Shown here in pieces: positions 3,684 through 16,866 of a DNA stretch of 26,367 bases. Source of the stretch: a virus (lineage: Duplodnaviria > Heunggongvirae > Uroviricota > Caudoviricetes); IMG/VR virus record IMGVR_UViG_2698536401_000014; one strand, written 5' to 3'. Under the pieces are notes generated by a model, which made no database searches, was not told where the DNA came from, and was given only the letters and a program-made list of their open reading frames with translations. Each line of letters opens with the position of its first letter. Position 1 is the stretch's first letter. Made by a program: the position numbers and the translations under genes.

Positions 3684-3910
3684 TGGCTGATGCAATGGAT
3701 CTCGTACAGCAGCGCGTTGAAGAAGAACGCCAACGCCATATCCGTGCTGCCCGTGCCAAAACGCCGGGCGTGTCCCGCGTGCTTTGCGTTGAGTGTGAAG
3801 CGCCAATTCCGCCAGCACGCCGCCGTGCCATTCCTGGAGTGCAGCTTTGCATTACCTGCCAGGAAATCGCAGAGCTGAAAGGCAAACATTACAACGGAGG
3901 TGCTGTATGA
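3683..3910 (+). CDS. TraR/DksA-family C4 zinc-finger protein
   Basis: 75 aa with CVEC...(17)...CITC four-cysteine motif and an N-terminal coiled-coil-like segment. Translationally coupled upstream and downstream. Confidence 0.7.
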   Translation: MADAMDLVQQRVEEERQRHIRAARAKTPGVSRVLCVECEAPIPPARRRAIPGVQLCITCQEIAELKGKHYNGGAV

Positions 3911-4764
3911 GCACCATCCTGAAATGGGCGGGTAATAAAACCGCCATTATGTCCGAACTGAAAAAATACCTTCCTGCTGGCCCGCGACTGGTTGAACCTT
4001 TCGCGGGTTCTTGTGCTGTGATGATGGCGACGGATTACCCCAGCTATCTGGTTGCGGATATTAATCCTGATTTAATCAACCTCTATAAAAAGATTGCCGC
4101 TGATTGCGAAGCGTTTATATCTCGTGCCAAATTTTTATTTGAGGAAGCAAATAGTGAGCTGGCTTATTACAACATAAGACAGGAGTTTAATTACTCAACT
4201 GAAATTACTGATTTCATGAAGGCGATATATTTCCTGTATCTCAATCGTCACGGTTACCGTGGTTTATGTCGCTATAACAAGAGCGGGTATTTCAACATTC
4301 CCTACGGTAATTATAAAAATCCGTATTTCCCTGAAAAAGAAATTCGCGCATTTGCAGAGAAAGCCCAGCGGGCAACGTTTATCTGCGCGAGCTTTGATGA
4401 AACGCTGGCGATGCTGCAGGTGGGGGATGTGGTGTATTGCGATCCGCCGTATGACGGTACGTTTTCCGGCTATCACACTGATGGTTTCACTGAAGATGAC
4501 CAGTATCACCTGGCATCCATTCTTGAACATCGGTCATCAGAAGGACATCCGGTCATTGTTTCTAACAATGACACATCCCTGATTCGTTCGCTGTATCGCA
4601 ATTTTACTCACCACTATATCAAGGCAAAACGCAGCATCGGCGTGTCAGCTGGCGAGGGTAAATCTGCAACAGAAATCATTGCTGTTTCCGGGCCGAGCTG
4701 CTGGTTGGGATTTGATCCTTCGCGTGGCGTGGATAGTTCTGCCGTGTACGGAGTGTGTGTATGA
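3907..4764 (+). CDS. dam: DNA adenine methyltransferase (Dam-like, N6-MTase)
   Basis: [17 protein letters not shown] (SAM-binding FxGxG-like) and catalytic DPPY (CDPPYDG) motifs in Dam order. ATGA overlap with the preceding gene and with gene A. Confidence 0.85.
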
Positions 4765-7175
4765 GTCATGACGATATGAACAATTGCAGCGGCTTTAACG
4801 AGGCCGCCGCAGCATTTTCATGGAACGGCTCGAAAAAGGCCATTAACCCTTATCTGGACCCGGCGGAAGTTGCGCCGGAGTCTGCACTTTCAAACCTGAT
4901 CACTCTGTACGCTGCCGATAACGAGCAGGAACAACTGCGCCGCGAGGCACTGAGTGAGCAGGTCTGGGAGCGTTATTTCTTTAATGAATCCCGTGATCCT
5001 GTCCAGCGCGAAATGGAGCAGGATAAGCTCATTAGCCGGGCAAAGCTGGCGCATGAGCAGCAGCGTTTTAATCCGGACATGGTCATTCTGGCGGACGTAA
5101 ACGCCCAGCCTTCCCATATCAGCAAGCCGCTGATGCAACGTATTGAATACTTCAGCAGCCTGGGCAGGCCAAAGGCTTATTCCCGCTATTTGCGTGAGAC
5201 GATTAAGCCATGTCTGGAGCGACTGGATTGTGTACGTGACAGTCAGCTATCTGTTTCTTTCCGTTTTATGGCAAGCCATCAAGGGCTGGAGGGTCTGCTG
5301 ATCCTGCCTGAAATGAGCCAGGATCAGGTGAAACGCCTGTCCACCCTGGTAGCAGCGCATATGAGCATGTGTCTTGAGGACGCTTGTGGTGATTTGTATG
5401 CCACCGATGACGTTAAGCCAGAAGAAATCCGCAAGACATGGGAAAAGGTGGCAGCGGAAACCCTGCGTCTGGATGTTATCCCGCCTGCGTTTGAGAAACT
5501 TCGTCGGAAAAGAAACCGCCGCAAACCAGTGCCCTATGAACTCATCCCGGGTTCGCTGGCGCGTATGTTGTGTGCCGACTGGTGGTATCGGAAATTATGG
5601 AAGATGCGTTGCGAATGGCGGGAAGAGCAGTTGCGTGCTGTCTGCCTGGTCAGCAAAAAAGCATCCCCCTATGTCAGCTATGAAGCCGTGATGCATAAAC
5701 GTGAGCAGCGCCGTAAGTCGCGGGAGTTTTTTCGTTCTCATGAACTGGTGAACGAAGACGGCGACACGCTGGATATGGAAGATGTGGTAAACGCCAGCAG
5801 CAGCAACCCGGCGCATCGCCGCAATGAGATGATGGCCTGTGTTAAAGGTCTGGAGCTTATCGCGGAAATGCGCAGTGACTGTGCCGTTTTCTACACTATC
5901 ACCTGTCCGTCGCGTTTCCATTCCACGCTCAATAACGGCAGACCAAACCCGACCTGGACAAACGCGACGGTAAGACAAAGTAGCGATTATCTGGTCGGCA
6001 TGTTTGCTGCATTTCGTAAGGCTATGCATAAAGCCGAGTTGCGCTGGTATGGCGTGCGGGTAGCTGAGCCGCATCATGACGGTACTGTGCACTGGCATCT
6101 CATGTGTTTCATGCGTAAAAAAGACCGCGGCGCCATCACTGCATTACTGCGTAAGTTTGCCATCCGTGAAGACCGCGAGGAGCTGGGCAATAACACGGGA
6201 CCACGCTTTAAGTCTGAGCTGATAAACCCGCGCAAAGGTACGCCAACAAGCTATATCGCGAAATACATCAGTAAGAACATTGACGGGCGTGGTCTGGCTG
6301 GGGAGATCAGCAAGGAAACGGGTAAATCCCTGCGTGATAACGCTGAATACGTTAATGCCTGGGCGTCTCTGCATCGTGTTCAGCAATTCCGCTTCTTTGG
6401 CATTCCGGGGCGTCAGGCTTACCGTGAACTGCGATTGCTGGCTGGTCAGGCGGCAAGGCAACAGGGTGACAAAAAAGCAGGTGCGCCGGTACTGGATAAC
6501 CCGCGCCTTGATGCCATTCTGGCTGCTGCTGATGCTGGTTGTTTTGCCACCTATATCATGAAGCAGGGCGGCGTACTGGTTCCCCGTAAATATCACCTCA
6601 TCAGAACCGCTTATGAAATCAACGAAGAGCCAACCGCCTATGGCGATCACGGTATTCGTATTTATGGCATCTGGTCACCCATTGCAGAGGGCAAGATCTG
6701 CACTCATGCGGTGAAGTGGAAAATGGTTCGTAAGGCCGTTGACGTTCAGGAGGCGGCAGCCGACCAGGGCGCTTGCGCCCCTTGGACTCGTGGCAATAAC
6801 TGTCCCCTTGCTGAAAATTTGAACCAACAAGGGAAAGACAAATCAGCTGATGGGGATACCAGAACGGATATCACCCGCATGGATGACAAGGAGTTGCACG
6901 ATTACCTGCACAGTATGAGCAAAAAAGAGCGCCGGGAACTGGCAGCAAGGTTATGCTTGGTTAAACCGAAACGGCGTAAAGACTACAAACAGCGAATTAC
7001 AGACCATCAGCGACAGCAGCTCGTCTATGAGCTGAAGTCCAGAGGATTTGATGGTAGCGAGAAAGAGGTCGATTTACTCCTTCGCGGCGGCAGTATTCCG
7101 TCAGGAGCAGGCCTGCGTATCTTCTATCGGAACCAGCGTTTGCAGGAAGATGATAAGTGGCGGGATCTGTATTAA
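4761..7175 (+). CDS. A: Replication initiation endonuclease (P2 gpA-like rolling-circle initiator)
   Basis: 804 aa. HUH-type motif (VHWHLMCF) and paired active-site tyrosines (YIAKYISKN) typical of P2 A / phiX A-type Rep proteins. Position immediately before the SOS module and cargo region as in P2/186. Confidence 0.9.
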
Positions 7176-7267
7176 TTACGCGGGTTAACAATTCGTGCTC
7201 TTAATAATACCAGGCATATCAGGCTGATGAACGTAAAAAAACGTTTTACATCAGTAAGATTATTATA

Positions 7268-7287
7268 TACTGTGAATATAAACAGTG
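7268..7287. promoter_or_regulatory. LexA box (SOS operator)
   Basis: TACTGTGAATATAAACAGTG matches CTGT-N8-ACAG with an AT-rich spacer. Lies about 40 bp upstream of the 62-aa ORF and the DinI-like gene. Confidence 0.65.
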
Positions 7288-7327
7288 GTTATGTATACAG
7301 TATTGATTTGGTGTTATAGGAGGAAAG

Positions 7328-7516
7328 ATGCAGGACTATTTTTTGGAGTCTTTGAAGCTCCAGCGCATTGATTTTTTTCTTAAGCTTGTAGCGGCTAGTG
7401 AGTGTAGTGATGAAGAGAAGGGGCTGGCTTTGCAGTGGGTTTCTGAACTGACAGATGAACTCATGGCAAAAATCAGAAGCCACGAATACAACCGCTCAAT
7501 GGATGTCATCAGCTGA
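7328..7516 (+). CDS. Small SOS-operon protein (possible Tum-like antirepressor N-terminal component)
   Basis: 62-aa ORF with a strong AGGAGG ribosome-binding site 7 nt upstream of ATG 7328, directly downstream of the LexA box. Confidence 0.5.
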   Translation: MQDYFLESLKLQRIDFFLKLVAASECSDEEKGLALQWVSELTDELMAKIRSHEYNRSMDVIS

Positions 7517-7526
7517 GGTGACTTTT

Positions 7527-7760
7527 ATGCGCATTGAAATAATGATCGATAAAGAGCAGAAGATTAGCCAGTCTACCCTGGACGCCCTTGAATCCGAGCT
7601 TTACCGCAATCTGCGCCCCCTGTATCCCAAAACGGTAATTCGTATCCGCAAAGGTAGCTCTAACGGTGTGGAACTGACCGGACTGCAACTGGATGAAGAA
7701 AGAAAACAAGTGATGAAAATTATGCAGAAAGTGTGGGAAGACGACAGCTGGCTGCATTAA
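7527..7760 (+). CDS. DinI-family protein (Tum/DinI-like, SOS-regulated)
   Basis: 77 aa MRIEIMIDKEQKISQSTLDALESELYRNL...WEDDSWLH aligns by eye with DinI (MRIEVTIAK...ALAGEL...ETWESADDWF). GAGGTGA ribosome-binding site before ATG 7527. Confidence 0.75.
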   Translation: MRIEIMIDKEQKISQSTLDALESELYRNLRPLYPKTVIRIRKGSSNGVELTGLQLDEERKQVMKIMQKVWEDDSWLH

Positions 7761-7855
7761 GAAACGTTGCCTCCAGGAGGATTCATTCTGATGGGGGCTA
7801 GTTTGGGCAACGAGTGAAACGAGGCGTAAGGTGGGCGGGCATTTTGATAAGTGAT

Positions 7856-7881
7856 CGTCCGCTTTGTGCTAGAAGCGGTCG
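7856..7881. terminator. Weak hairpin between convergent DinI-like and HerA genes
   Basis: Imperfect inverted repeat CGTCCGCTT / AAGCGGTCG with an 8-nt loop. No clear U-tract. Confidence 0.25.
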
Positions 7882-7904
7882 TTACCGCTTCAGCACTTTG
7901 TTAA

Positions 7905-9764
7905 TTAGTGAGGGCTGGTTATTACGTAGTCGCTCTGGTCATCCTCTCCCAGCCTCTCAGGTATTAAATCGTTGAAGGAAATAGTATTACTCTTAGGTTT
8001 TTCTTCAATTGGAAGTTCAGCTACCCTTAATTTGAGCGGCATGGGGCAGACGATACCACTAAAAATACAGGTTCCTGTAGATAGCGTTGGAATCGACTCT
8101 TCAGTCAGTCGATCTATATATGATACTGATTTTTCAATTGCGTACAGATCATTCTGATTAATAAGGCGATGAATAAAATAATTGTGTGCTTGGGATATGA
8201 TTGTCGACGATATATCATTAGGGCGTTGACTGGAAATTGTGATAAAAACTCCAAATTTTCTCCCCTCCTTTATGATTTCCTCAAAAGTTTCCAGACGATA
8301 ATCTCTCCAACTTTCCGTTTCCCGAAAAGAAGTATTAGACAAAATATTGTGGGCTTCATCTATAATAATGTGCAGTGTAGATTTCTCTGTAGACATTTTC
8401 TTCATATTGTAAGCCCACTTGGCTATCAAAAGAGGAAGCGTTTTTTTCATGGTTATATTAACCATATTTAGATTCACAACCGTGAAATTATGTTCACCCC
8501 AAAAATCAGACTGTCCGGAAGTATCAAATATTTTGGCTATATCTTTACGGTTAGCACTCATTCTATTTATAACTGGTGAAATATGTTCAGGGTTAGACTT
8601 GTTAGATAAATATTCCTGTATTAACTGTAAGTACATAAAGTCCAACAGTTCTTCAATCATATCAGTTTTAAATGAAAAATTGCTTGCAAGACTGAATAGA
8701 TAGGAGCGCTCAGTATCAGCTTCTGTATTGAAAATACTACCACCCCTCAATTTCCATTTATATGCAGTTGAATGATACTCAAGATCAGATATAAGTTCTG
8801 GGTCATCTTTGAAAATTGGGCTAAGAAACTGATTTATAGTATCGCATTTGGGTTTGTCGCTACTAAAGAGATTTTGTCTGACTTTTTTCTTCAGGATATT
8901 GCGCATAAACTCAAGAGGATTATCAGCGGTCATCACTTTCTTGCGAAACTCAAGAACTCTCTTCAGGAAAGGTTTCTGTGTTTTGTCTGTTGCATCGGTT
9001 AGAACTGAGAGCATATCATGCTCAAGTAGAACCTCTCTGGGTAGAGGAAGTTTGTCACCATTTGCATGGTGCGTGTTGAGATTATAAACCGTCTTCTCGT
9101 CAGTAATACAGCGTGGGGCAGTATATTCTCCATTAAAGTCGAATAGAATAAATTTGCATCTTTCACTAAAGTGGTTGCCGAGAATATGTTTAACTTGGGC
9201 AATACCTGCTTTGTATAGCGCGGCTAGGGTATTTGACTTTCCGCTGCCTGTATTACCGAAAATGGCAATGTGGGAATTAATAAGACCATTGATTGGTAGT
9301 GCAATTTCAATATCTTCAAGATCTGTACGAGTAAACCTCATTACAGTTTCGTCTGCATCAGCTATCTGATGAACCGTCTGTATCATCTCTTCAGTTACCA
9401 CGAAGACTTCATTGCCGATGAGAGGTAGTTCACGCGAACCACCAATGAAGCAACCAGTACGATCAATGTAACCCGTAAGAGTAGAGGTCAGGTATCGCCG
9501 ATATCGCCAGGCATCACTGCCGCTCCCAGCGAGATGTTTTTCCTCAATGATTCGTTCCGCTTCAACCTTGCCGATCAGGCTCATGAAACCTTTTTTGATC
9601 TCAATGAAGCTACCCACTGATACATTTCTTAGAACTTTTCCCTGATAAAACAAGTCACTGAGATTTTTGTTTTTATCGACCAAAATTGTCACAGCGCGTC
9701 CAGAAACCTCACAGACTTCGCCTATACGGAGCACCGCTTCCTCTTCAGTAAAATGCCTGCTCAT
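7905..9764 (-). CDS. herA: HerA-family ATPase (SIR2-HerA defence system, HerA component)
   Basis: 619 aa. Walker A IAIFGNTGSGKSNT and Walker B HIIIDEAHN in HerA/FtsK-like arrangement. Start ATG overlaps the SIR2 stop (ATGA). GGAGG ribosome-binding site 6 nt upstream. Confidence 0.8.
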   Translation of the reverse strand: MSRHFTEEEAVLRIGEVCEVSGRAVTILVDKNKNLSDLFYQGKVLRNVSVGSFIEIKKGFMSLIGKVEAERIIEEKHLAGSGSDAWRYRRYLTSTLTGYIDRTGCFIGGSRELPLIGNEVFVVTEEMIQTVHQIADADETVMRFTRTDLEDIEIALPINGLINSHIAIFGNTGSGKSNTLAALYKAGIAQVKHILGNHFSERCKFILFDFNGEYTAPRCITDEKTVYNLNTHHANGDKLPLPREVLLEHDMLSVLTDATDKTQKPFLKRVLEFRKKVMTADNPLEFMRNILKKKVRQNLFSSDKPKCDTINQFLSPIFKDDPELISDLEYHSTAYKWKLRGGSIFNTEADTERSYLFSLASNFSFKTDMIEELLDFMYLQLIQEYLSNKSNPEHISPVINRMSANRKDIAKIFDTSGQSDFWGEHNFTVVNLNMVNITMKKTLPLLIAKWAYNMKKMSTEKSTLHIIIDEAHNILSNTSFRETESWRDYRLETFEEIIKEGRKFGVFITISSQRPNDISSTIISQAHNYFIHRLINQNDLYAIEKSVSYIDRLTEESIPTLSTGTCIFSGIVCPMPLKLRVAELPIEEKPKSNTISFNDLIPERLGEDDQSDYVITSPH

Positions 9765-10804
9765 CTCGAGCCTCCCAGATAGCACGTGATAATGTTATTC
9801 ATTACCGGAAAATCAACATTTCTTCCCGGCCGATAAATAATCTCTACGTTTGAGTAATCCCGAAATTTCTCCATAAAGCCGTTAACACTGGCCTCATCGA
9901 AAGCAAAGATCAGTAGCTTCAGGGTGGCGTTGCGCAGGGCTTTTTTAGTTATCGTTTCAATGTGCTCATCAGCAAACGAGAACCCAAAGACAATTAGTAA
10001 AGTTGCTTCTTTATCAAGCTCGTTGGAATAGGTTCTCAGTAAATCATAATAAACGTTCTGTAGTAGAGTCTCTTTAAACTTCTCCTTACGTGGAAGAATA
10101 AGTGCATGAGCAAGTACCCATCCTTTCATTTCGGCTAGGGTGGGAAAGTCAAGCGGCTTAATATCTGCAATACGATAAATGATTTTCCCTTTAGAATGCT
10201 GCCAAGAGAGCGAACCATGAAGTTTTATAAGGTTAACAGTAGGAAGCTCAACTTTATAATTATACAGATTTCCGGTTGCACTTACAGAATGATTAAAGCT
10301 ACCCGCATCAAATTCCGCATCTCCCAAAATACTTGCTCTTCTATTGAATCCATCATTAAAAAGAATATTGTTATTACGTGTGGCAGCTTCTTCGATGAAT
10401 AAATCATAATTAGTTGTAAAAACGTTAATACGCCTCGGAAGTAGGCCAGTTCGGCGGCGGGTCAGTATCTTTTCCAGTGAAGACATAAATGCATCATAAT
10501 TTGCACGGGTACATTCCAAATCGGTGATCACCTGAGGTGCGAAGGGGGTGCCGTAGCCGCGCTTCAACATGCATTCATGAGGTAGCCAAACATCTGACAA
10601 AAAGTCAGCTGCCATCCTTAAGTATTCATCTTCCTGTTCATCATTAATAAGCTGCTGAAGATCCGTTTCGATTGTCCCCAGTACTTTAATCGCTGGGAGG
10701 GATGCACCTGATCCGATGAGAAAGTTAATGTTAGCTGACTGAAATATCCGCTCTAAGTAGTCTCGGTCACTATCGTTACCGTAGTATGCGCGCTTGACTG
10801 CCAT
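9761..10804 (-). CDS. SIR2-domain protein (SIR2-HerA defence system, putative NADase effector)
   Basis: 347 aa. SIR2-like motifs FLIGSGAS (Rossmann GxGxS), FTTNYD and KLHGS (catalytic His region), as in defence-associated SIR2 domains. Directly upstream of and translationally coupled to HerA. Confidence 0.75.
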   Translation of the reverse strand: MAVKRAYYGNDSDRDYLERIFQSANINFLIGSGASLPAIKVLGTIETDLQQLINDEQEDEYLRMAADFLSDVWLPHECMLKRGYGTPFAPQVITDLECTRANYDAFMSSLEKILTRRRTGLLPRRINVFTTNYDLFIEEAATRNNNILFNDGFNRRASILGDAEFDAGSFNHSVSATGNLYNYKVELPTVNLIKLHGSLSWQHSKGKIIYRIADIKPLDFPTLAEMKGWVLAHALILPRKEKFKETLLQNVYYDLLRTYSNELDKEATLLIVFGFSFADEHIETITKKALRNATLKLLIFAFDEASVNGFMEKFRDYSNVEIIYRPGRNVDFPVMNNIITCYLGGSR

Positions 10805-11228
10805 CTTATCCTTCCACAAAACATTGGATTAGTCTGTAATTTATTTAATCTTAACGCCGAGCTCAATACTTTAACATCACTTCTTCTGGCGATTGCTATG
10901 AGCCCTTCTTGATAAAAAGTTCGATCGGGAAACTGATCCTTTATGCCACAAGTTTTCTAGCTATCCTCAAAAAATTGGTGTTAAAACTGTGCCAACAAAG
11001 TTGCAAGGTTCGCTTCTCGCTCACAGCGAACTTTCATCTTTGTAAACCCGTATGATTCGCTTTTCAGCAGTCATTCAGATACGGATTTACGCTTCCCTTG
11101 GCAGCGCATGACTATGACGCATGAGATCGCATGATCGTTTGAGGATCGTTTTTGCTGAAGTCAGCCAGAACTGGCGTGCTTTTGCTTATGTCATGCAGGT
11201 GCATGAAAACCACTACATAAAGCGGGCA

Positions 11229-11247
11229 GGCGTGGCGGGGATACGAG
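11229..11247. other. Putative cos (cohesive end) site of the P2/186-type genome
   Basis: GGCGTGGCGGGGATACGAG resembles the recalled P2/186 cohesive-end sequences (GGCGAGGCGGGGAAAGCAC / GGCGTGGCGGGGAAAGCAT) in the first 13 nt. Lies on the portal-distal side of Q in the expected orientation. Confidence 0.4.
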
Positions 11248-11327
11248 CGCGCGCAAGTGGCTGAGTGGGGGGGAAGGCAAAACAAGCACCTGCAAGATGA
11301 TGGCTGAATGGAAAAGTTTGTTGAAAA

Positions 11328-13406
11328 ATGCTAATTTTAGAAACAACATATAAGTTTTTATCCACCTCGTTAAGGCTTTCTATGAGCAGTTTCTTTTATA
11401 TCCAGCCTGATTTAAAAAATGATACAAATGCTGATTTTTTGAACTCTGTTGAAGAGTATGCAAATACTCATCAAATGCAGATTTATGCAATAATGAATCC
11501 CTTAGGGGAAAATAAATATAAATATAATAGAGACGATGTTCTTATTATATTAAGCCCAGGATACCAATTAGCGTTCGTTGCTTTTAGTGATGATGTTGAT
11601 GGTATACAAAATTTTATAGAGGATTTTATAGAGGATTTAGGTTCCTTATCAGATAAATACAATTATAAAGATACAATTGGTAGGCCTCGAGCGTGGAAAG
11701 ATAAACTTGTTACTGAGTGCTCATACGCTGATTTTAGTTTCGGTAATCTTGATAAGTTTTTTGATGAAATTAAAATTATTGATGGTGTTCTGGCTAAAAA
11801 GAGTGAGTTAATTATCTCTCTCTTAACAGGAAGTATCAATAATATTGATAAAGTTAAAGGCAATGTGCCAGATAATATACTTGACAAGGTTAAGCAAAAG
11901 ATAATTTTGTTTGATGGAGATCAGACAAGGTTTGTATACCAAAAATTTGATAAGAAAAAAGTTGTTATTCAAGGATTATCAGGTACTGGTAAGACTGAAC
12001 TATTGCTTCATAAGTTAAAGGAAATATATTTGGATAAGGAGAATTTAAATAGTAAAATAATGTTTACGTGCCATAATAAAATATTGGCAGACAATATGAG
12101 AAAGAGAATTCCAGAGTTTTTCAACTTTATGAAGGTCGAGCAGCAGATTAGCTGGAATGAAAGACTTTGGTGTGTTAATGCATGGGGTTCTCAATATGAC
12201 GGTAACTCTGGCGCATATAGATATATATGTGAATATTATGGATTAAGTTTCTATCGTTTTAGCTATGTGATGACTTTCGATAAAGTATGTAGAATTGCGT
12301 TGGATGAACTAAAAAAGTTGCCAAGCAATGAATTTAAGCATTGCTTTGACTTTATGTTAATAGATGAAAGTCAGGATTTCCCATCAAGCTTCATTGAGCT
12401 TTGCGAGCTGGTAACTCGTGATACTATTTATGTTGCTGGTGATATATTTCAAAGTATATTTGATACTAATATCTCTAATGAGATACAGCCAGACTTTCTT
12501 CTAAGTAAATGCTACCGAACAGATCCAAGGACATTGATGTTTGCTCATGGTTTAGGTATGGGGCTATTTGAAGAAGAACCATTAACTTGGTTAATGAATA
12601 ATGAATGGGAAGCCTGCGGTTATATAGTTGATGAATCGGTAAAAGGTAAATTAAGATTAAAGAGAGAGCCACTAAGAAGATTTGAAGATGTAACGGATGC
12701 AAAAATACATAGTGTGGAATTAATTAATTCCACATATGAAACTGAAGAAGAGAATATTTTGGGTATACTCCGTAAAATTAAGGAGGAGAATCCTACTGTT
12801 TTGGCTGATGATATTGGTATCATCTTTATTGATCAGGCTAAGACTATATTTAAAATCGCAGACAGACTTGAATTGAGCGTGCCTAGATTATTAGGGTGGA
12901 AGGTTAATAAGGCATATGAAACAAAAGAAAAAATTAAAGATACGTTATTCATAAGTAATAAAAACCATGTAAAAGGGTTGGAGTTTCCTTTTGTTATCTG
13001 TGTTACTCGTGATATTATCAAGAGCCATTCTTATCGAAATTCACTATATATGATGTTAACTCGTTCCTTTATTAAATCATATTTGCTTTTGGGGGATGGG
13101 AATAAATACTTACAGAATGAGATAGAAAAGGGGTTAGATGTTATTAATGAGCATGGTTATATGGATATTAACGTTCCACCGAGAGAAGTTATTTCAAAAA
13201 TAAGAACAACAATCAAATATGATGAGAAAAATATATCTCATTATGATTTGGTTACAAAGGTCTTCGATGACTTACAGATTGAGCCGATATTTCGTACATC
13301 CCTGTATAATACAGTAAAAACAATCATGCCTGATTCTTTTGATGTCGATAAAATTACTACTCTTGTTCGGTTCAACTATGAAATAATGCTTCAGGAGTCG
13401 AAGTGA
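11328..13406 (+). CDS. SF1 (UvrD-like / DExQD) helicase-family ATPase with unassigned ~200-aa N-terminal domain; candidate defence protein
   Basis: 692 aa. Walker A VIQGLSGTGKTELL; Walker B/motif II FMLIDESQDF; CYRT (UvrD motif IV-like); HVKGLEFPFVI (UvrD C-terminal motif). No TOPRIM or obvious nuclease motif. Alternative start at ATG 11382. Region is very AT-rich relative to the phage backbone. Confidence 0.8.
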   Translation: MLILETTYKFLSTSLRLSMSSFFYIQPDLKNDTNADFLNSVEEYANTHQMQIYAIMNPLGENKYKYNRDDVLIILSPGYQLAFVAFSDDVDGIQNFIEDFIEDLGSLSDKYNYKDTIGRPRAWKDKLVTECSYADFSFGNLDKFFDEIKIIDGVLAKKSELIISLLTGSINNIDKVKGNVPDNILDKVKQKIILFDGDQTRFVYQKFDKKKVVIQGLSGTGKTELLLHKLKEIYLDKENLNSKIMFTCHNKILADNMRKRIPEFFNFMKVEQQISWNERLWCVNAWGSQYDGNSGAYRYICEYYGLSFYRFSYVMTFDKVCRIALDELKKLPSNEFKHCFDFMLIDESQDFPSSFIELCELVTRDTIYVAGDIFQSIFDTNISNEIQPDFLLSKCYRTDPRTLMFAHGLGMGLFEEEPLTWLMNNEWEACGYIVDESVKGKLRLKREPLRRFEDVTDAKIHSVELINSTYETEEENILGILRKIKEENPTVLADDIGIIFIDQAKTIFKIADRLELSVPRLLGWKVNKAYETKEKIKDTLFISNKNHVKGLEFPFVICVTRDIIKSHSYRNSLYMMLTRSFIKSYLLLGDGNKYLQNEIEKGLDVINEHGYMDINVPPREVISKIRTTIKYDEKNISHYDLVTKVFDDLQIEPIFRTSLYNTVKTIMPDSFDVDKITTLVRFNYEIMLQESK

Positions 13407-14032
13407 ATAAAGAGTATTATTTTAGTCTGGAGCAGGCTCAGTGTGACTGGGCCTTTAAGCCAATACGAACAAAGAAAGATGTTATTGAAATATTGATGAG
13501 ATTAATCAAACTAATTTCTGTTTATACAGAACCATGCGAACAGAATGTGGTTGGGAGAGTGAAACTTCATATATCAAAGATGAGTCGAGTTTTCTTCTTT
13601 AGTGAAAATAAATATTATTCTCTTGCATTTCCTTTTTTTCTTGATGAAATTAATGGTCAGATTTTATTTAGTAGTCCAGAAATGGAGTGTATAGATAGTT
13701 TTGTAACATCAAAAGTCATTTCTTTTATTAATGACTCCTCTTATTTGAATAGTTCTTCTTGGGCCTTTTTTGAACCATTGTTAAATATTGAAGAACATCA
13801 AGGTATTTCCGGGTTTTGGCCTTTTCTTAGAATGTTGTTAACTTATGAGGATGGTTATATTAGATATGATGTCGATGAAGAAAGGGCTAATGGAAATCGT
13901 CATCCATTATATCATTTCGACGTCTTTTATTCTAATCCGCCAACGTTTAAAATTGGTTTGAATGCACATTATACAAATGATGAAATGATTGATTTTCTTG
14001 ATAGGGAAACTGATTGTCGTTATTTGAAATGA
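13403..14032 (+). CDS. Hypothetical 209-aa protein, partner of the helicase-like ATPase (candidate effector/sensor)
   Basis: GTG start overlaps the helicase stop (GTGA), indicating translational coupling. Same AT-rich composition. No transmembrane segment or recognisable catalytic motif. Confidence 0.65.
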   Translation: MNKEYYFSLEQAQCDWAFKPIRTKKDVIEILMRLIKLISVYTEPCEQNVVGRVKLHISKMSRVFFFSENKYYSLAFPFFLDEINGQILFSSPEMECIDSFVTSKVISFINDSSYLNSSSWAFFEPLLNIEEHQGISGFWPFLRMLLTYEDGYIRYDVDEERANGNRHPLYHFDVFYSNPPTFKIGLNAHYTNDEMIDFLDRETDCRYLK

Positions 14033-14033
14033 T

Positions 14034-14065
14034 AAAATTTAGCTGGCATTAGCCAGCTAAATTTT
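14034..14065. terminator. Bidirectional hairpin terminator between the cargo cassette and portal gene
   Basis: Perfect 14-bp inverted repeat AAAATTTAGCTGGC-ATTA-GCCAGCTAAATTTT with A/T runs on both sides, immediately after both convergent stop codons. Confidence 0.6.
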
Positions 14066-14068
14066 AAT

Positions 14069-15100
14069 TTACATCGTCAATGAGTAATTTTTGAATTGTA
14101 TTATTGTATTGTCTAACCAATTATTTATTTCTTCGAGTATTTTTTGTAATGGAATAAGCTCATTACGCACAAATACATTCGCCGCCTTCTCCACATCCCC
14201 AAACCCCCCAACATTATTCGGCATAATCCCCATCATCTGTGGCGGTACACGATGCGCCGCCATCATATCATCACGGCTGACGTTCTTGATGTTAAGAAAT
14301 TCATCCTTTGCCGCGACTTCTGATAACGGGATAATCTGAAGACCATCCTTTTTGCCGTTAGGCGAGTACATAAACAGGTTGCGGAAATTGCCTGGGCCTT
14401 TGGCGCTTTTCATCGCATTACGGAGGTTGTTCACATCTTCCTGGTTCTGCGCGGCGTCGGTCATGTACATGATGAAGCCAGCATGACTGCCGTTAATGTA
14501 ATACTTGCGGCGGAACAGCGTGGCGGATTCGTTGAGCAGGGCGGATGGAATGGCAGAAAGATAACCGGGCAGGCCGTAGATCTCCTGGTTGATGTCCGGT
14601 TCCATCAGATGAAAAATGCTGCCTTTCGTGAACTGATACGGCTGGGCTGTCATACCGTATTGCACAAACCAGTAGGTATCCAGGTCTAATCCGCGTCGGG
14701 TGTATTTTGCCAAAGCTGGCTCAAGGGCGATAACTTCACCGAAGCGGTTCGTGCGTTTCTCCAGGTAGGCGTTACCAAATACCAGATAGTCCTGCACAAA
14801 ACGTGAAAAAGCCTGCTGGCTGAGCAGCGGGTGAGGGATGTAGGTGCTGGTCAGAATGTTGCACTTTACTGCAATCGGTGAGCTGTGATGCACGGCGGCG
14901 CGAAAGGTGCGCGCCAGCCCGTCGAAACTCACTGGCGGCTCATACCAGCGATCTGTCTGTACGCATTCCACATAGTCCAGCAGTTCGCGGCGGTCCAGAA
15001 CAGGAACGGGATCACCGAAGCTGAATGCTTCGGCTGAAGTCTGGCTTTTATGCTGGATCTGGTTCGTCGACGCAGCGCGGTTCTTCTTACTCTTTCCCAT
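14069..15100 (-). CDS. Q: Portal protein (P2 gpQ-like)
   Basis: 343 aa (recalled P2 Q is 344 aa). Leftward, adjacent to and coupled (ATGA) with the terminase ATPase gene. Position and orientation match P2/186. Confidence 0.85.
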   Translation of the reverse strand: MGKSKKNRAASTNQIQHKSQTSAEAFSFGDPVPVLDRRELLDYVECVQTDRWYEPPVSFDGLARTFRAAVHHSSPIAVKCNILTSTYIPHPLLSQQAFSRFVQDYLVFGNAYLEKRTNRFGEVIALEPALAKYTRRGLDLDTYWFVQYGMTAQPYQFTKGSIFHLMEPDINQEIYGLPGYLSAIPSALLNESATLFRRKYYINGSHAGFIMYMTDAAQNQEDVNNLRNAMKSAKGPGNFRNLFMYSPNGKKDGLQIIPLSEVAAKDEFLNIKNVSRDDMMAAHRVPPQMMGIMPNNVGGFGDVEKAANVFVRNELIPLQKILEEINNWLDNTIIQFKNYSLTM

Positions 15101-16866
15101 CAAAAAATCTCCACAATATTACTGGTATTGGCGGACTCGCCTTGCAGTGGTTCGTTAAACAGTGCGTGCATTGTTGCCCAAGCCAGATCGGCGTGGCTGG
15201 CTTCTTCGCTGCGGCTGGCTTCATAGGTCGGGCGGTTGCCGCTGGCGGTGGTGGCACGACGGATTGCCATAAAGGACTGTGCTATGTCGGTGTGTCCGGC
15301 GTCAAACTCCAGACGGCGGTGGCTGATAATGTCGTAAGCCTTGAGTACCAGGGCGTTTTTAACGTTGGGGTTGTAGACAAACTCCCGGACGGCAGGAAAA
15401 AACGCTTTCACGTTCTCGTAAACCCCGTGACCAACGCCGGTTGAGTCGATACCGATATAGGTCACATTGTACTGTTCGGTCAGTTTTTTGATGGCGTCAG
15501 CCTGGGCGCGAAAGTCCATCCCGCGCCACTGGTGACGCTCAAGAATGCGAAACTTACCGCCCGGCACGGCTGGCGGTGCCAGCACCACGCATCCGGCACT
15601 GTCGCCGTTCTGCGTACCTTTTGCCGGGTCATAACCGATCCACACTTCGCGCCAGCCAAATGGGCGCAGCGCCAGTGCATGAAAGTCGGTCCAGACTTCC
15701 CAGCTGTCCACCATGCACGCCTGCAGCTCGCTGAGCGGGAACACGGACGCGAGATCGTCCACAAACTCGCACATCAGCAGGTTCTGGTATTCGTCCGGGC
15801 TGTACTCCATGCGCAACTGGTCAAGGTCGAACAGGTTACAGCCGCCGCGCACTGCATCTTCCACGGTGACTATCTGGCGGTATTGCCCGTCTGCGCACAG
15901 CAGGCCGGGGGCCAGATTGCTGTGGGACAGGTCGATGTCCACCTTGTCGGCTTTGTTGCGCCCACGGTTGAACAGCGCACCGGACCAGAACGGATAAGCA
16001 CTGTGTGTCAGGCTGGATGGCGTGGAAAAATAGGTCTGCCGCCATTTCTTGTGAATAGCCATACCGGAAGCCACTTTGCGCAGCTCCTGGAATTTCGGTA
16101 TCCAGAAATATTCATCCAGATACAGGTTGCCGTGGTAACTCTGAGCCGTGCGGGCATTGGTGCCGAGGAAGTAAAGCGTGGCCCCGTTAGGAAGCACCAT
16201 CGGATCGCCTTTCAGCTCCACCTCGACTTCTTTGGCGAAGTCGATGATGTACTGCTTAAAGACGTGAGCCTGTGCCTTACTGGCAGAAAGGAAAATCTGG
16301 TTACGTCCGGTAAGCAGGGCGTCAATCAGGGCTTCACGGGCAAAGTAAAAGGTCGCGCCGATCTGGCGTGACTTCAGCAGATTACGGATGCGGTTGGTTT
16401 TTCCTGCTTCCCACCAGTGGCGCTGGTAGTTGAACATGGAGGAATGGAAGATTTCTTCCAGCTTCTCAATCTGTTCATCGGTGAAAACATTCTTTTCCGG
16501 CTGACGGCGCGGCCCTTTGTTGCGGTTGGCGACGTTAGGGTTTAAGTCGGCTTCGTTGCCGCCATTGTTAAACTTGCCGATCCGCGCGTGGCGCTCCGAC
16601 TGGCGCGCCAGCAGGTCAATTTCTTTGAAATCTTTCCCTTCTTTGTGCTCCTTCATAATGAGCTGGCAGTAGCGGGCGGCGGTGGTGAGCTGCATCTGAT
16701 CCAGCGGCCCATAGTCACCCCACTTGTCGCGTTTTTTCCAGCTGTGAACGGTTGCAACTTTCTCGCCCAGCATTTCAGCAATGCGGGCTACGCGGTATCC
16801 CTGAAAGTACAGCAGCATGGCCTGCCGACGGGGATCGAGATCTGCGGGTGTCAGTGTGGTGTTCAT
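15100..16866 (-). CDS. P: Terminase large (ATPase) subunit (P2 gpP-like)
   Basis: 588 aa (recalled P2 P is about 590 aa). Divergent from the scaffold/capsid operon as in P2. Confidence 0.85.
   Translation of the reverse strand: MNTTLTPADLDPRRQAMLLYFQGYRVARIAEMLGEKVATVHSWKKRDKWGDYGPLDQMQLTTAARYCQLIMKEHKEGKDFKEIDLLARQSERHARIGKFNNGGNEADLNPNVANRNKGPRRQPEKNVFTDEQIEKLEEIFHSSMFNYQRHWWEAGKTNRIRNLLKSRQIGATFYFAREALIDALLTGRNQIFLSASKAQAHVFKQYIIDFAKEVEVELKGDPMVLPNGATLYFLGTNARTAQSYHGNLYLDEYFWIPKFQELRKVASGMAIHKKWRQTYFSTPSSLTHSAYPFWSGALFNRGRNKADKVDIDLSHSNLAPGLLCADGQYRQIVTVEDAVRGGCNLFDLDQLRMEYSPDEYQNLLMCEFVDDLASVFPLSELQACMVDSWEVWTDFHALALRPFGWREVWIGYDPAKGTQNGDSAGCVVLAPPAVPGGKFRILERHQWRGMDFRAQADAIKKLTEQYNVTYIGIDSTGVGHGVYENVKAFFPAVREFVYNPNVKNALVLKAYDIISHRRLEFDAGHTDIAQSFMAIRRATTASGNRPTYEASRSEEASHADLAWATMHALFNEPLQGESANTSNIVEIF

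What the first reader, a model, noticed from the sequence alone, without database searches (positions are those of the whole stretch)
7905..10804. SIR2 + HerA operon in the P2 old/tin accessory position
Leftward two-gene operon: a 347-aa protein with SIR2-like motifs (GSGAS, TTNYD, LHGS) followed, with ATGA start/stop overlap, by a 619-aa HerA/FtsK-type ATPase (Walker A GNTGSGKSNT, Walker B IIIDEAH). This matches the gene order and sizes of the described SIR2-HerA abortive-infection system, in which the SIR2 partner acts as an NAD+-degrading effector. It occupies the slot between the replication/SOS genes and cos where P2 carries old and tin. GC content looks lower than the backbone by eye.
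Basis: partly seen in the sequence, partly recalled or inferred. Interest (0 to 1): 0.6.

Follow-up and report, generated by a model that had tools for sequence, protein, structure and literature searches.

The report
SIR2-HerA defence cassette in P2-like prophage
This is an intact two-gene SIR2-HerA anti-phage system carried as cargo by a P2/186-like prophage, in the slot next to the packaging site where phage P2 carries old and tin. The same protein at the same slot is already listed in a published catalogue, so the finding is correct but ordinary.

Summary
A 347-aa SIR2 gene (10804..9761, minus strand) overlaps by ATGA a 619-aa HerA gene (9764..7905). All the quoted motifs are present.

Both proteins match PADLOC's SIR2 and HerA subfamily models end to end (698 and 885 bits). 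An AlphaFold model of the SIR2 protein finds only SIR2 subunits of solved SIR2-HerA complexes as its 37 best PDB matches.

I located cos at 11229-11247 by alignment with phages 186 and P2. The cassette (7771-11102, 40.6% GC against 53-56% in the backbone) therefore lies between the LexA-controlled DinI/tum-like operon and cos. This is the old/tin position, in the same leftward orientation.

The SIR2 protein is 100% identical to WP_028985770. Rousset et al. 2022 list that protein in their P2 gpA-gpQ hotspot table, which also has a system entry "SIR2 + HerA (Gao et al., 2020)". The finding is therefore already known.

The proteins are only about 28-34% identical to the biochemically studied homologues. 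I found no direct test of this short-SIR2 subtype, so NADase-based abortive infection is inferred.

A second, uncharacterised cassette (STM2767/STM2766 helicase pair) sits between cos and the portal gene.

The parts
9761..10804 (-). sir2: 347-aa SIR2_2-domain protein, the predicted NADase effector. GSGAS 31-35; putative catalytic N132/D134 (TTNYD) and H196 (LHGS).
   Evidence: It is 100% identical to WP_028985770.
7905..9764 (-). herA: 619-aa HerA/FtsK-type ATPase. Walker A 170-179 (K176), Walker B 466-472. Its start overlaps the sir2 stop (ATGA).
   Evidence: It differs by one residue (V572I) from WP_032211916.
10805..11035 (-). Upstream leader/promoter region that travels with the two genes; it is part of the core shared at 91% with a non-P2 island. 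The promoter itself was not identified.
   Evidence: The blastn boundary of the core is 7882-11035 against L002. The consensus scan found no sigma-70 match here.
7866..7896 (.). 13-bp hairpin with one bulge, 9 nt downstream of the herA stop, between convergent herA and the DinI-like operon. A T-run follows on the + strand only.
   Evidence: dG -21 to -23 kcal/mol, z -3.1/-4.0; sequence.
7771..11102 (.). The whole inserted block relative to a P2-like prophage that lacks it (E. coli N9), where 68 bp stand in its place.
   Evidence: blastn of the window against L004: 7000-7770 and 11103-14200 match, and the block between them is absent. GC 40.6%.
11103..11258 (+). Conserved cos region of the prophage, forming the right boundary of the slot. 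The 19-nt cohesive-end counterpart GGCGTGGCGGGGATACGAG is at 11229-11247.
   Evidence: Window 11160-11260 aligns with the right-end/left-end junction of phage 186 (75.7% over 103 columns; the first 13 nt of the annotated cos are identical) and with P2. The stretch 11200-11268 is present in about 1250 E. coli complete genomes, and the region is in P2-like phages of several genera.
7270..7760 (+). Left boundary (context): a perfect LexA box at 7270-7285, a 62-aa ORF at 7328-7516 and a DinI/tum-like gene at 7455-7760, resembling the SOS operon of phage 186.

Best explanation
The region is a SIR2-HerA anti-phage system, a member of the family whose E. coli prototype is called Nezha. It is carried as a lysogenic-conversion cassette in the A-to-cos slot of a P2/186-like prophage. 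By analogy with solved homologues (inferred, not shown here), the SIR2 protein forms a double-ring oligomer that docks on a HerA hexamer. HerA couples ATP state and DNA or phage cues to opening of the SIR2 active site, and SIR2 then hydrolyses NAD+. The infected cell arrests and the superinfecting phage fails to propagate (abortive infection). The operon is transcribed leftward from the cos-proximal side, as P2's old-tin operon is. It is an exchangeable module: the same cassette occurs with different neighbours in other P2-like prophages, and at 90-91% identity in P4-like or integrase islands.
For: Shown here: intact overlapping ORFs with ribosome-binding sites. Pfam SIR2_2 and DUF87 are above their cut-offs. 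PADLOC SIR2 and HerA subfamily models match full length at 698 and 885 bits. The catalytic N/D/H and the Walker A/B motifs are present and aligned to solved homologues, and N132, D134 and H196 are invariant in 58 homologues. The AF2 model (pLDDT 86, pTM 0.87) has as its top 37 PDB matches only SIR2 chains of S. aureus, E. coli and Paenibacillus SIR2-HerA or SIR2 assemblies (E 3e-16 to 6e-10); other defence sirtuins come at 1e-6 or worse. The sir2-herA pair is kept in the same order, overlapping or 26 nt apart, in relatives at 43-90% identity on unrelated mobile elements. From the literature: the P2 gpA-gpQ locus is a defence hotspot, and WP_028985770 is listed there with a DUF87 partner (PMC9122126). 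NADase activation by assembly, the 12:6 complex and the need for both active sites are described in PMC11472057 and PMC11514289. ATP gating and phage-protein triggers are described in PMC13434337.
Against: I found no experimental data for this subtype. Identity to characterised SIR2 proteins is about 34% (S. aureus, over 204 aligned residues) and about 28% (E. coli Nezha). NCBIfam's anti-phage SIR2 and HerA equivalog models score far below their cut-offs (100 against 500 bits; 139 against 800 bits). In Zhang et al. 2026, only 4 of 8 E. coli Sir2-HerA clusters gave robust protection against 110 phages, and I could not tell which cluster this one is. No promoter was identified. The trigger is unknown.
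Confidence: 0.85

Rival explanations
1. It is a functional SIR2-HerA defence, but the main antiviral act is DNA nicking or degradation by the HerA-containing complex. NAD+ depletion would be a late, gated or secondary step, as proposed for the type III system.
For: Zhang et al. 2026 report a HerA nickase (D218) that is essential for type III defence. Nuclease activity is also reported for the Paenibacillus complex. The HerA here has an FDFNGEY segment about 33 residues after the Walker A lysine (sequence; motif coordinates). That spacing is similar to type III K188-D218, but this is an inference only.
Against: The SIR2 catalytic residues are invariant across the subfamily, which argues that NADase chemistry is under selection. 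I made no residue-level alignment with type III, because its sequence is not held. The type III numbering (N238, K188) does not fit this protein (N132, K176).
Confidence: 0.2
2. It is an intact but currently inert or very narrow-spectrum cassette, giving no measurable defence against common coliphages.
For: Half of the E. coli Sir2-HerA clusters tested by Zhang et al. showed no robust activity. The cassette is rare: 16 of 5426 complete genomes.
Against: There are no frameshifts, and all motifs are intact. Identity is 99.8-99.9% across 13 genomes from different hosts and countries. The gene pair is conserved down to 43% identity.
Confidence: 0.1
3. It is not a defence system: a HerA ATPase with a sirtuin partner serves the prophage's own DNA metabolism (repair, replication or packaging).
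For: HerA family members act in DNA end resection and DNA translocation (NCBIfam hits to repair HerA and CedD). There is a weak PHROG hit to terminase large subunit.
Against: The cassette is absent from nearly all P2-like prophages and from P2 and 186 themselves. It has foreign GC. The same pair occurs on plasmids, integrase islands and P4-like elements next to other defence genes. The best matches are the defence-type SIR2 and HerA.
Confidence: 0.03

Closest known systems
E. coli SIR2-HerA / Nezha (WP_021577683/WP_021577682; PDB 8j4u, 8su9, 8sub, 8sxx)
   Same: Two-gene sir2-herA architecture; SIR2_2 fold with TTNYD and LHGS; HerA with Walker A/B. The fold match has E about 4e-15 and TM up to 0.67.
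   Different: Only about 28% identity in the SIR2 core; 347 against 415 aa. The segment between GxGxS and TTNYD is shorter here (about 95 residues against about 127). NCBIfam equivalog cut-offs are not reached. Nezha is reported to be gated by ATP level; the trigger here is unknown.
S. aureus SaSir2-HerA (PDB 8yhx)
   Same: It is the closest solved SIR2 by sequence (E 3.5e-21, about 34% identity over 204 aligned residues) and by fold (E 3e-16). A 12:6 complex with HerA-induced opening of the NAD+ pocket is described.
   Different: 428-aa SIR2 and 562-aa HerA; Gram-positive host; not phage-borne as described.
Paenibacillus sp. 453MF SIR2-HerA (PDB 8w9l, 8wiv, 8wld)
   Same: It is the closest solved HerA by sequence (E 1.2e-27). 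The sir2 and herA ORFs overlap on one strand. Catalytic N163/D165/H212 correspond to N132/D134/H196 here.
   Different: The SIR2 match is weak by sequence (E 8.5e-5). HerA is 696 aa with a C-terminal arm. A SIR2 tetradecamer is seen in that complex.
E. coli type I-III Sir2-HerA (Zhang et al., NAR 2026, PMC13434337)
   Same: Divergent E. coli Sir2-HerA lineages distinct from Nezha, with an abortive-infection phenotype. This cassette is presumably one of their eight clusters.
   Different: It is not type III, whose residues N238, K188 and D218 do not fit N132 and K176. Whether it is type I, type II or an unvalidated cluster could not be determined, because no accession numbers are held.
P2 old-tin operon
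   Same: Same slot (after gene A, before cos), same leftward orientation with the promoter on the cos side, and the same role as a non-essential exclusion cargo.
   Different: The proteins are unrelated (OLD ATPase-TOPRIM nuclease and Tin).
Other SIR2 NADase defences (ThsA, DSR2, KomBC, SIR2-APAZ)
   Same: SIR2 fold and catalytic motif.
   Different: Fold matches are 10 or more orders of magnitude weaker. Partner domains (SLOG, DSR2 C-terminal domain, pAgo) are absent, and HerA is the partner here.

Membership tests
SIR2-HerA (Nezha-family) defence system | SIR2_2-domain protein that keeps the NAD+-site residues (Asn/Asp of TTNYD, His of HGS) | tested here: met
   Pfam PF13289 at 48.4 bits against a cut-off of 24.5. 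The motifs align to 8yhx and 8j4u. N132, D134 and H196 are invariant in 58 homologues.
SIR2-HerA (Nezha-family) defence system | HerA (DUF87) ATPase with Walker A and Walker B | tested here: met
   PF01935 at 70.1 bits against a cut-off of 23.2. GNTGSGKSNT is at 170-179 and IIIDEAH at 466-472. Matches to HerA chains of solved SIR2-HerA complexes have E 1e-27 to 2e-20.
SIR2-HerA (Nezha-family) defence system | sir2 and herA adjacent on one strand as an operon, with the pairing conserved in relatives | tested here: met
   ATGA overlap. The same order occurs, with a 4-nt overlap or a 26-nt gap, in Steroidobacter, metagenome, Klebsiella plasmid and Citrobacter loci.
SIR2-HerA (Nezha-family) defence system | Matches the models a defence-annotation tool uses for the system | tested here: met
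   PADLOC PDLC04080 (SIR2) covers 1-347 of 347 at 697.8 bits. PDLC04097 (HerA) covers 3-616 of 618 at 885.3 bits.
SIR2-HerA (Nezha-family) defence system | SIR2 fold closest to the SIR2 subunits of solved SIR2-HerA complexes | tested here: met
   The top 37 Foldseek PDB matches are all such chains; model pLDDT is 86.
SIR2-HerA (Nezha-family) defence system | Supramolecular SIR2(12 or 14):HerA(6) complex with assembly-activated NADase | not testable with these tools
   Known only for homologues.
SIR2-HerA (Nezha-family) defence system | Protects against phage, with NAD+ depletion | not testable with these tools
   I found no experiment on this subtype.
NCBIfam equivalogs SIR2_antiphage (NF042942) / HerA_antiphage (NF042943, NF042944) | Score at or above the curated equivalog cut-off | tested here: not met
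   99.8 against 500 bits; 138.7 against 800 bits; 117.5 against 850 bits. This is therefore a different subfamily from those curated ones, which explains the bland RefSeq names ('SIR2 family protein', 'ATP-binding protein').
Type III Sir2-HerA (Zhang et al. 2026) | Same protein lineage as the characterised representative (Sir2 N238; HerA K188, D218) | tested here: not met
   The catalytic Asn is at 132 and the Walker A Lys at 176 here, against N238 and K188. No sequence is held for a direct alignment.
P2-like gpA-gpQ defence hotspot cargo (Rousset et al. 2022) | Variable, non-core genes between replication gene A and portal gene Q, next to cos | tested here: met
   Phage_GPA is at 4755-7175, the portal gene at 14069-15103 and cos at 11229-11247. 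The block is absent from other P2-like prophages. WP_028985770 is listed in their Table S5.

The most novel reading that the evidence does not exclude
This short-SIR2 lineage (347 aa with a reduced helical small domain; PADLOC PDLC04080/PDLC04097) could be a functionally distinct Sir2-HerA subtype with its own trigger and gating. That would follow the pattern already shown for types I-III against Nezha. Because it rides a P2/186-like prophage, it may be tuned not to fire on that prophage's own SOS induction. Separately, cos splits the 'single' gpA-gpQ hotspot into two independently assorting slots. The same SIR2-HerA cassette is seen with three different cos-Q cargos.
Probability: 0.3. Interest if true: 0.35.

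Novelty: already known. Interest (0 to 1): 0.15.

Why it matters
It adds little on its own. It is one more example of temperate P2-like phages carrying NAD+-depleting abortive-infection modules that protect the lysogen from other phages. It could be useful as a natural, compact (3.3 kb) representative of an E. coli Sir2-HerA lineage that has apparently not been studied biochemically. It also illustrates how cassettes on either side of cos are shuffled independently.

Tried and rejected
- The P2 cos 19-mer with up to 3 mismatches found nothing. The site here is 186-like (GGCGTGGCGGGG...) and 5 mismatches from P2. It was found instead by aligning the conserved linker with the joined ends of 186 and P2.
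- The consensus promoter scan gave no minus-strand hit in 10805-11100, and the overall count was no higher than in shuffles (9 against 9.8). The promoter is left unassigned.
- No convincing direct or inverted repeats flank the cassette, so there is no sign of site-specific insertion. Exchange by recombination in flanking homology (the DinI end and the cos region) is more likely.
- Rfam found nothing in 7000-14200.
- No deposited phage genome carries the cassette: 0 of 50,697 records cover 80% or more of it. It is seen only in prophages within bacterial genomes.
- I could not assign the cassette to one of Zhang et al.'s eight clusters. No supplement is held, and the text gives no accession numbers.
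- Thoeris, DSR, SPARSA and HerA-NurA readings were rejected on partner genes and fold ranking.
Full report
**Observation**

The two leftward ORFs exist as described. These are the same boundaries as the RefSeq CDS in E. coli 89-3156.

The stop of the first gene and the start of the second overlap as ATGA at 9764-9761. Both starts have Shine-Dalgarno-like sequences. All the quoted motifs are present:
- SIR2: GSGAS 31-35, TTNYD 130-134, LHGS 195-198.
- HerA: Walker A 170-179, Walker B 466-472.

The GC impression is right. The cassette is 40.6% GC, against 52.7% for gene A and 55.7% for the structural genes. GC3 is 0.36-0.40 against 0.57-0.69.

**Identity of the proteins**

- Pfam gives SIR2_2 (E 1.3e-12) and the HerA central domain DUF87 (E 3.7e-19), both above their gathering scores.
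- PADLOC has models that fit both proteins end to end: SIR2 PDLC04080 at 698 bits and HerA PDLC04097 at 885 bits.
- Against PDB sequences, the SIR2 protein is nearest to the SIR2 of the S. aureus SIR2-HerA complex (8yhx, E 3.5e-21). The E. coli Nezha SIR2 comes next (8j4u/8su9, E 1.5e-11). TTNYD and (K)LHGS align in both.
- HerA is nearest to the Paenibacillus HerA (8wiv, E 1.2e-27).
- In an alignment of 58 homologues down to about 40% identity, G31, G33, S35, N132, D134 and H196 are invariant. These correspond to the putative catalytic N163/D165/H212 of the Paenibacillus enzyme.
- An AlphaFold2 model built on that alignment (pLDDT 86, pTM 0.87) was searched against the PDB. Its 37 best matches are all SIR2 chains of S. 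aureus, E. coli or Paenibacillus SIR2-HerA or SIR2 assemblies (E 3e-16 to 6e-10). ThsA, DSR2, KomBC and FAM118B follow at 1e-6 or worse.

**Conservation of the pair**

Relatives of the SIR2 protein at 43-62% identity still have a DUF87/HerA gene immediately downstream on the same strand. I checked a Steroidobacter island with integrase and relaxase, a metagenomic island and a Klebsiella Rep3 plasmid. The genes overlap by 4 nt or lie 26 nt apart. A 90%-identical pair in Citrobacter lies in a P4-like or integrase island (DUF927 primase, AlpA, integrase) next to a Shedu-type gene. A 91%-identical E. coli copy lies in an IS-flanked island.

**Position and boundaries**

The backbone is a P2/186-like prophage, with these genes in order:
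- integrase, CI repressor, CII, DUF5347, Dam-like methylase and gene A (4755-7175);
- a DinI/tum-like gene (7455-7760);
- portal (14069-15103), terminase, scaffold and capsid genes.

A perfect LexA box (7270-7285) precedes the 62-aa ORF and the DinI-like gene, as in the p95 SOS operon of phage 186.

Compared with a P2-like prophage that lacks the system (E. coli N9), window 7771-11102 replaces 68 bp. The core shared with the non-P2 copy is 7882-11035.

Immediately to the right lies a 155-bp segment (11103-11258) that recurs widely. Its 11200-11268 part is found in about 1250 complete E. coli genomes, and the region is present in P2-like phages of Klebsiella, Salmonella and Yersinia. Alignment with the joined ends of phages 186 and P2, whose records annotate the cohesive ends, shows that this segment is cos. 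Window 11229-11247 (GGCGTGGCGGGGATACGAG) shares the first 13 nt of the 186 cohesive end. Window 11160-11260 aligns across the 186 junction at 75.7% identity.

The cassette therefore occupies exactly the A-to-cos slot. P2's old-tin operon sits there too, also leftward, with its transcript starts about 150 bp from cos. A 13-bp hairpin (7866-7896) separates the convergent herA and DinI-like transcripts.

**Is it known?**

Yes. Rousset et al. 2022 (PMC9122126) defined the gpA-gpQ region of P2-like prophages as a defence hotspot. Their Table S5 lists SIR2_2 + DUF87 arrangements that include WP_028985770, and it has a system entry 'SIR2 + HerA (Gao et al., 2020)'.

The window's SIR2 is 100% identical to WP_028985770. 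Its HerA differs from WP_032211916 by one residue. Thirteen complete E. coli genomes carry the cassette at 99.8% identity or more at this locus, and three more carry the 91% variant elsewhere. That makes 16 of 5426 genomes. No deposited phage genome carries it.

**Mechanism**

What is shown here is family membership, intact active-site motifs and operon structure. The rest is inferred from homologues:
- SIR2 forms a double ring (12- or 14-mer) that docks on a HerA hexamer. Assembly activates the NADase. Both the SIR2 and the HerA active sites are needed for defence (PMC11472057, PMC11514289).
- In Nezha, high ATP masks the activities.
- In the E. coli type III system, T7 Gp2.5 and Gp5.9 trigger a HerA nickase. 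DNA ends then drive ATP consumption, and only then is the NADase released (PMC13434337).

Which gating logic applies here is unknown. The proteins are about 28-34% identical to the characterised ones and fall far below NCBIfam's anti-phage equivalog cut-offs. Their residue numbering excludes identity with type III. Zhang et al. found robust activity for only four of eight E. coli clusters, so an inert or narrow-spectrum cassette remains a minor possibility.

**Surroundings**

Between cos and the portal gene lies a second foreign block of 32% GC. It holds a 692-aa SF1/UvrD-like helicase (NCBIfam STM2767 family, 989 bits) and an overlapping 209-aa 'STM2766 family helicase-associated protein'. 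It ends in a perfect 15-bp bidirectional hairpin at about 14033-14066.

This block has no PADLOC system assignment, no PDB sequence relatives and no functional literature. It occurs in 5 of 5426 E. coli complete genomes, always in a P2-like prophage and there without SIR2-HerA. Rousset's table lists it only by domains.

The same SIR2-HerA cassette is found with three different cos-Q cargos: hypothetical + HIRAN (L001), a 557-aa unknown protein (L018) and this helicase pair. The two slots therefore assort independently. The particular combination in this window is not in the complete E. coli genome set.

**Verdict**

The finding is already known and of low interest. The only open points are the untested biochemistry and trigger of this short-SIR2 lineage, and the uncharacterised neighbouring helicase pair.

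Noticed in passing
window 11328-14032 (+): A second foreign cassette (32% GC) lies between cos and the portal gene. It holds a 692-aa SF1/UvrD-like helicase (NCBIfam STM2767 family) and an overlapping 209-aa STM2766-family 'helicase-associated protein'. It has no defence-system assignment, no solved relatives and no functional literature. It is found in 5 of 5426 E. coli complete genomes, always in a P2-like prophage. It is a plausible untested defence candidate.
   Followed up: partly
window 11103-11258 (cohesive-end counterpart 11229-11247): The prophage cos site lies between the two cargo blocks, so the published 'gpA-gpQ hotspot' is really two slots (A-to-cos and cos-to-Q) that assort independently. 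The same SIR2-HerA cassette is seen with three different cos-Q cargos (L001, L018 and this window).
   Followed up: partly
window 7270-7285, with genes 7328-7516 and 7455-7760 (+): A perfect LexA box (CTGTGAATATAAACAG) lies upstream of a 62-aa ORF and a DinI/tum-like gene, resembling the SOS-inducible p95 operon of phage 186. It is convergent with herA.
   Followed up: partly
window 14033-14066: A perfect 15-bp palindromic hairpin flanked by A/T runs on both sides lies between the STM2766-like gene and the portal gene. It looks like a bidirectional terminator (dG about -21 kcal/mol, z about -7).
   Followed up: partly
window 3847-4764 (+): A Dam-like (D12 class) orphan N6-adenine methyltransferase lies just upstream of replication gene A. 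This is typical of this P2/186-like lineage and may protect the phage from restriction.
   Followed up: no
L015/L016 7001-9900; L002 7053-9922: 90-91% identical copies of the same SIR2-HerA pair lie outside P2-like phages. One is in a P4-like or integrase island next to a Shedu-type (SduA_C) gene in Citrobacter. The other is in an IS-flanked island near ypjA in E. coli. The cassette therefore moves between element types.
   Followed up: partly
window 7771-7881 and 11036-11102: Short junction segments (111 and 67 bp) flank the mobile core. They are shared with other P2-borne copies but not with the non-P2 copy. They may be remnants of earlier recombination events at the hotspot.
   Followed up: no
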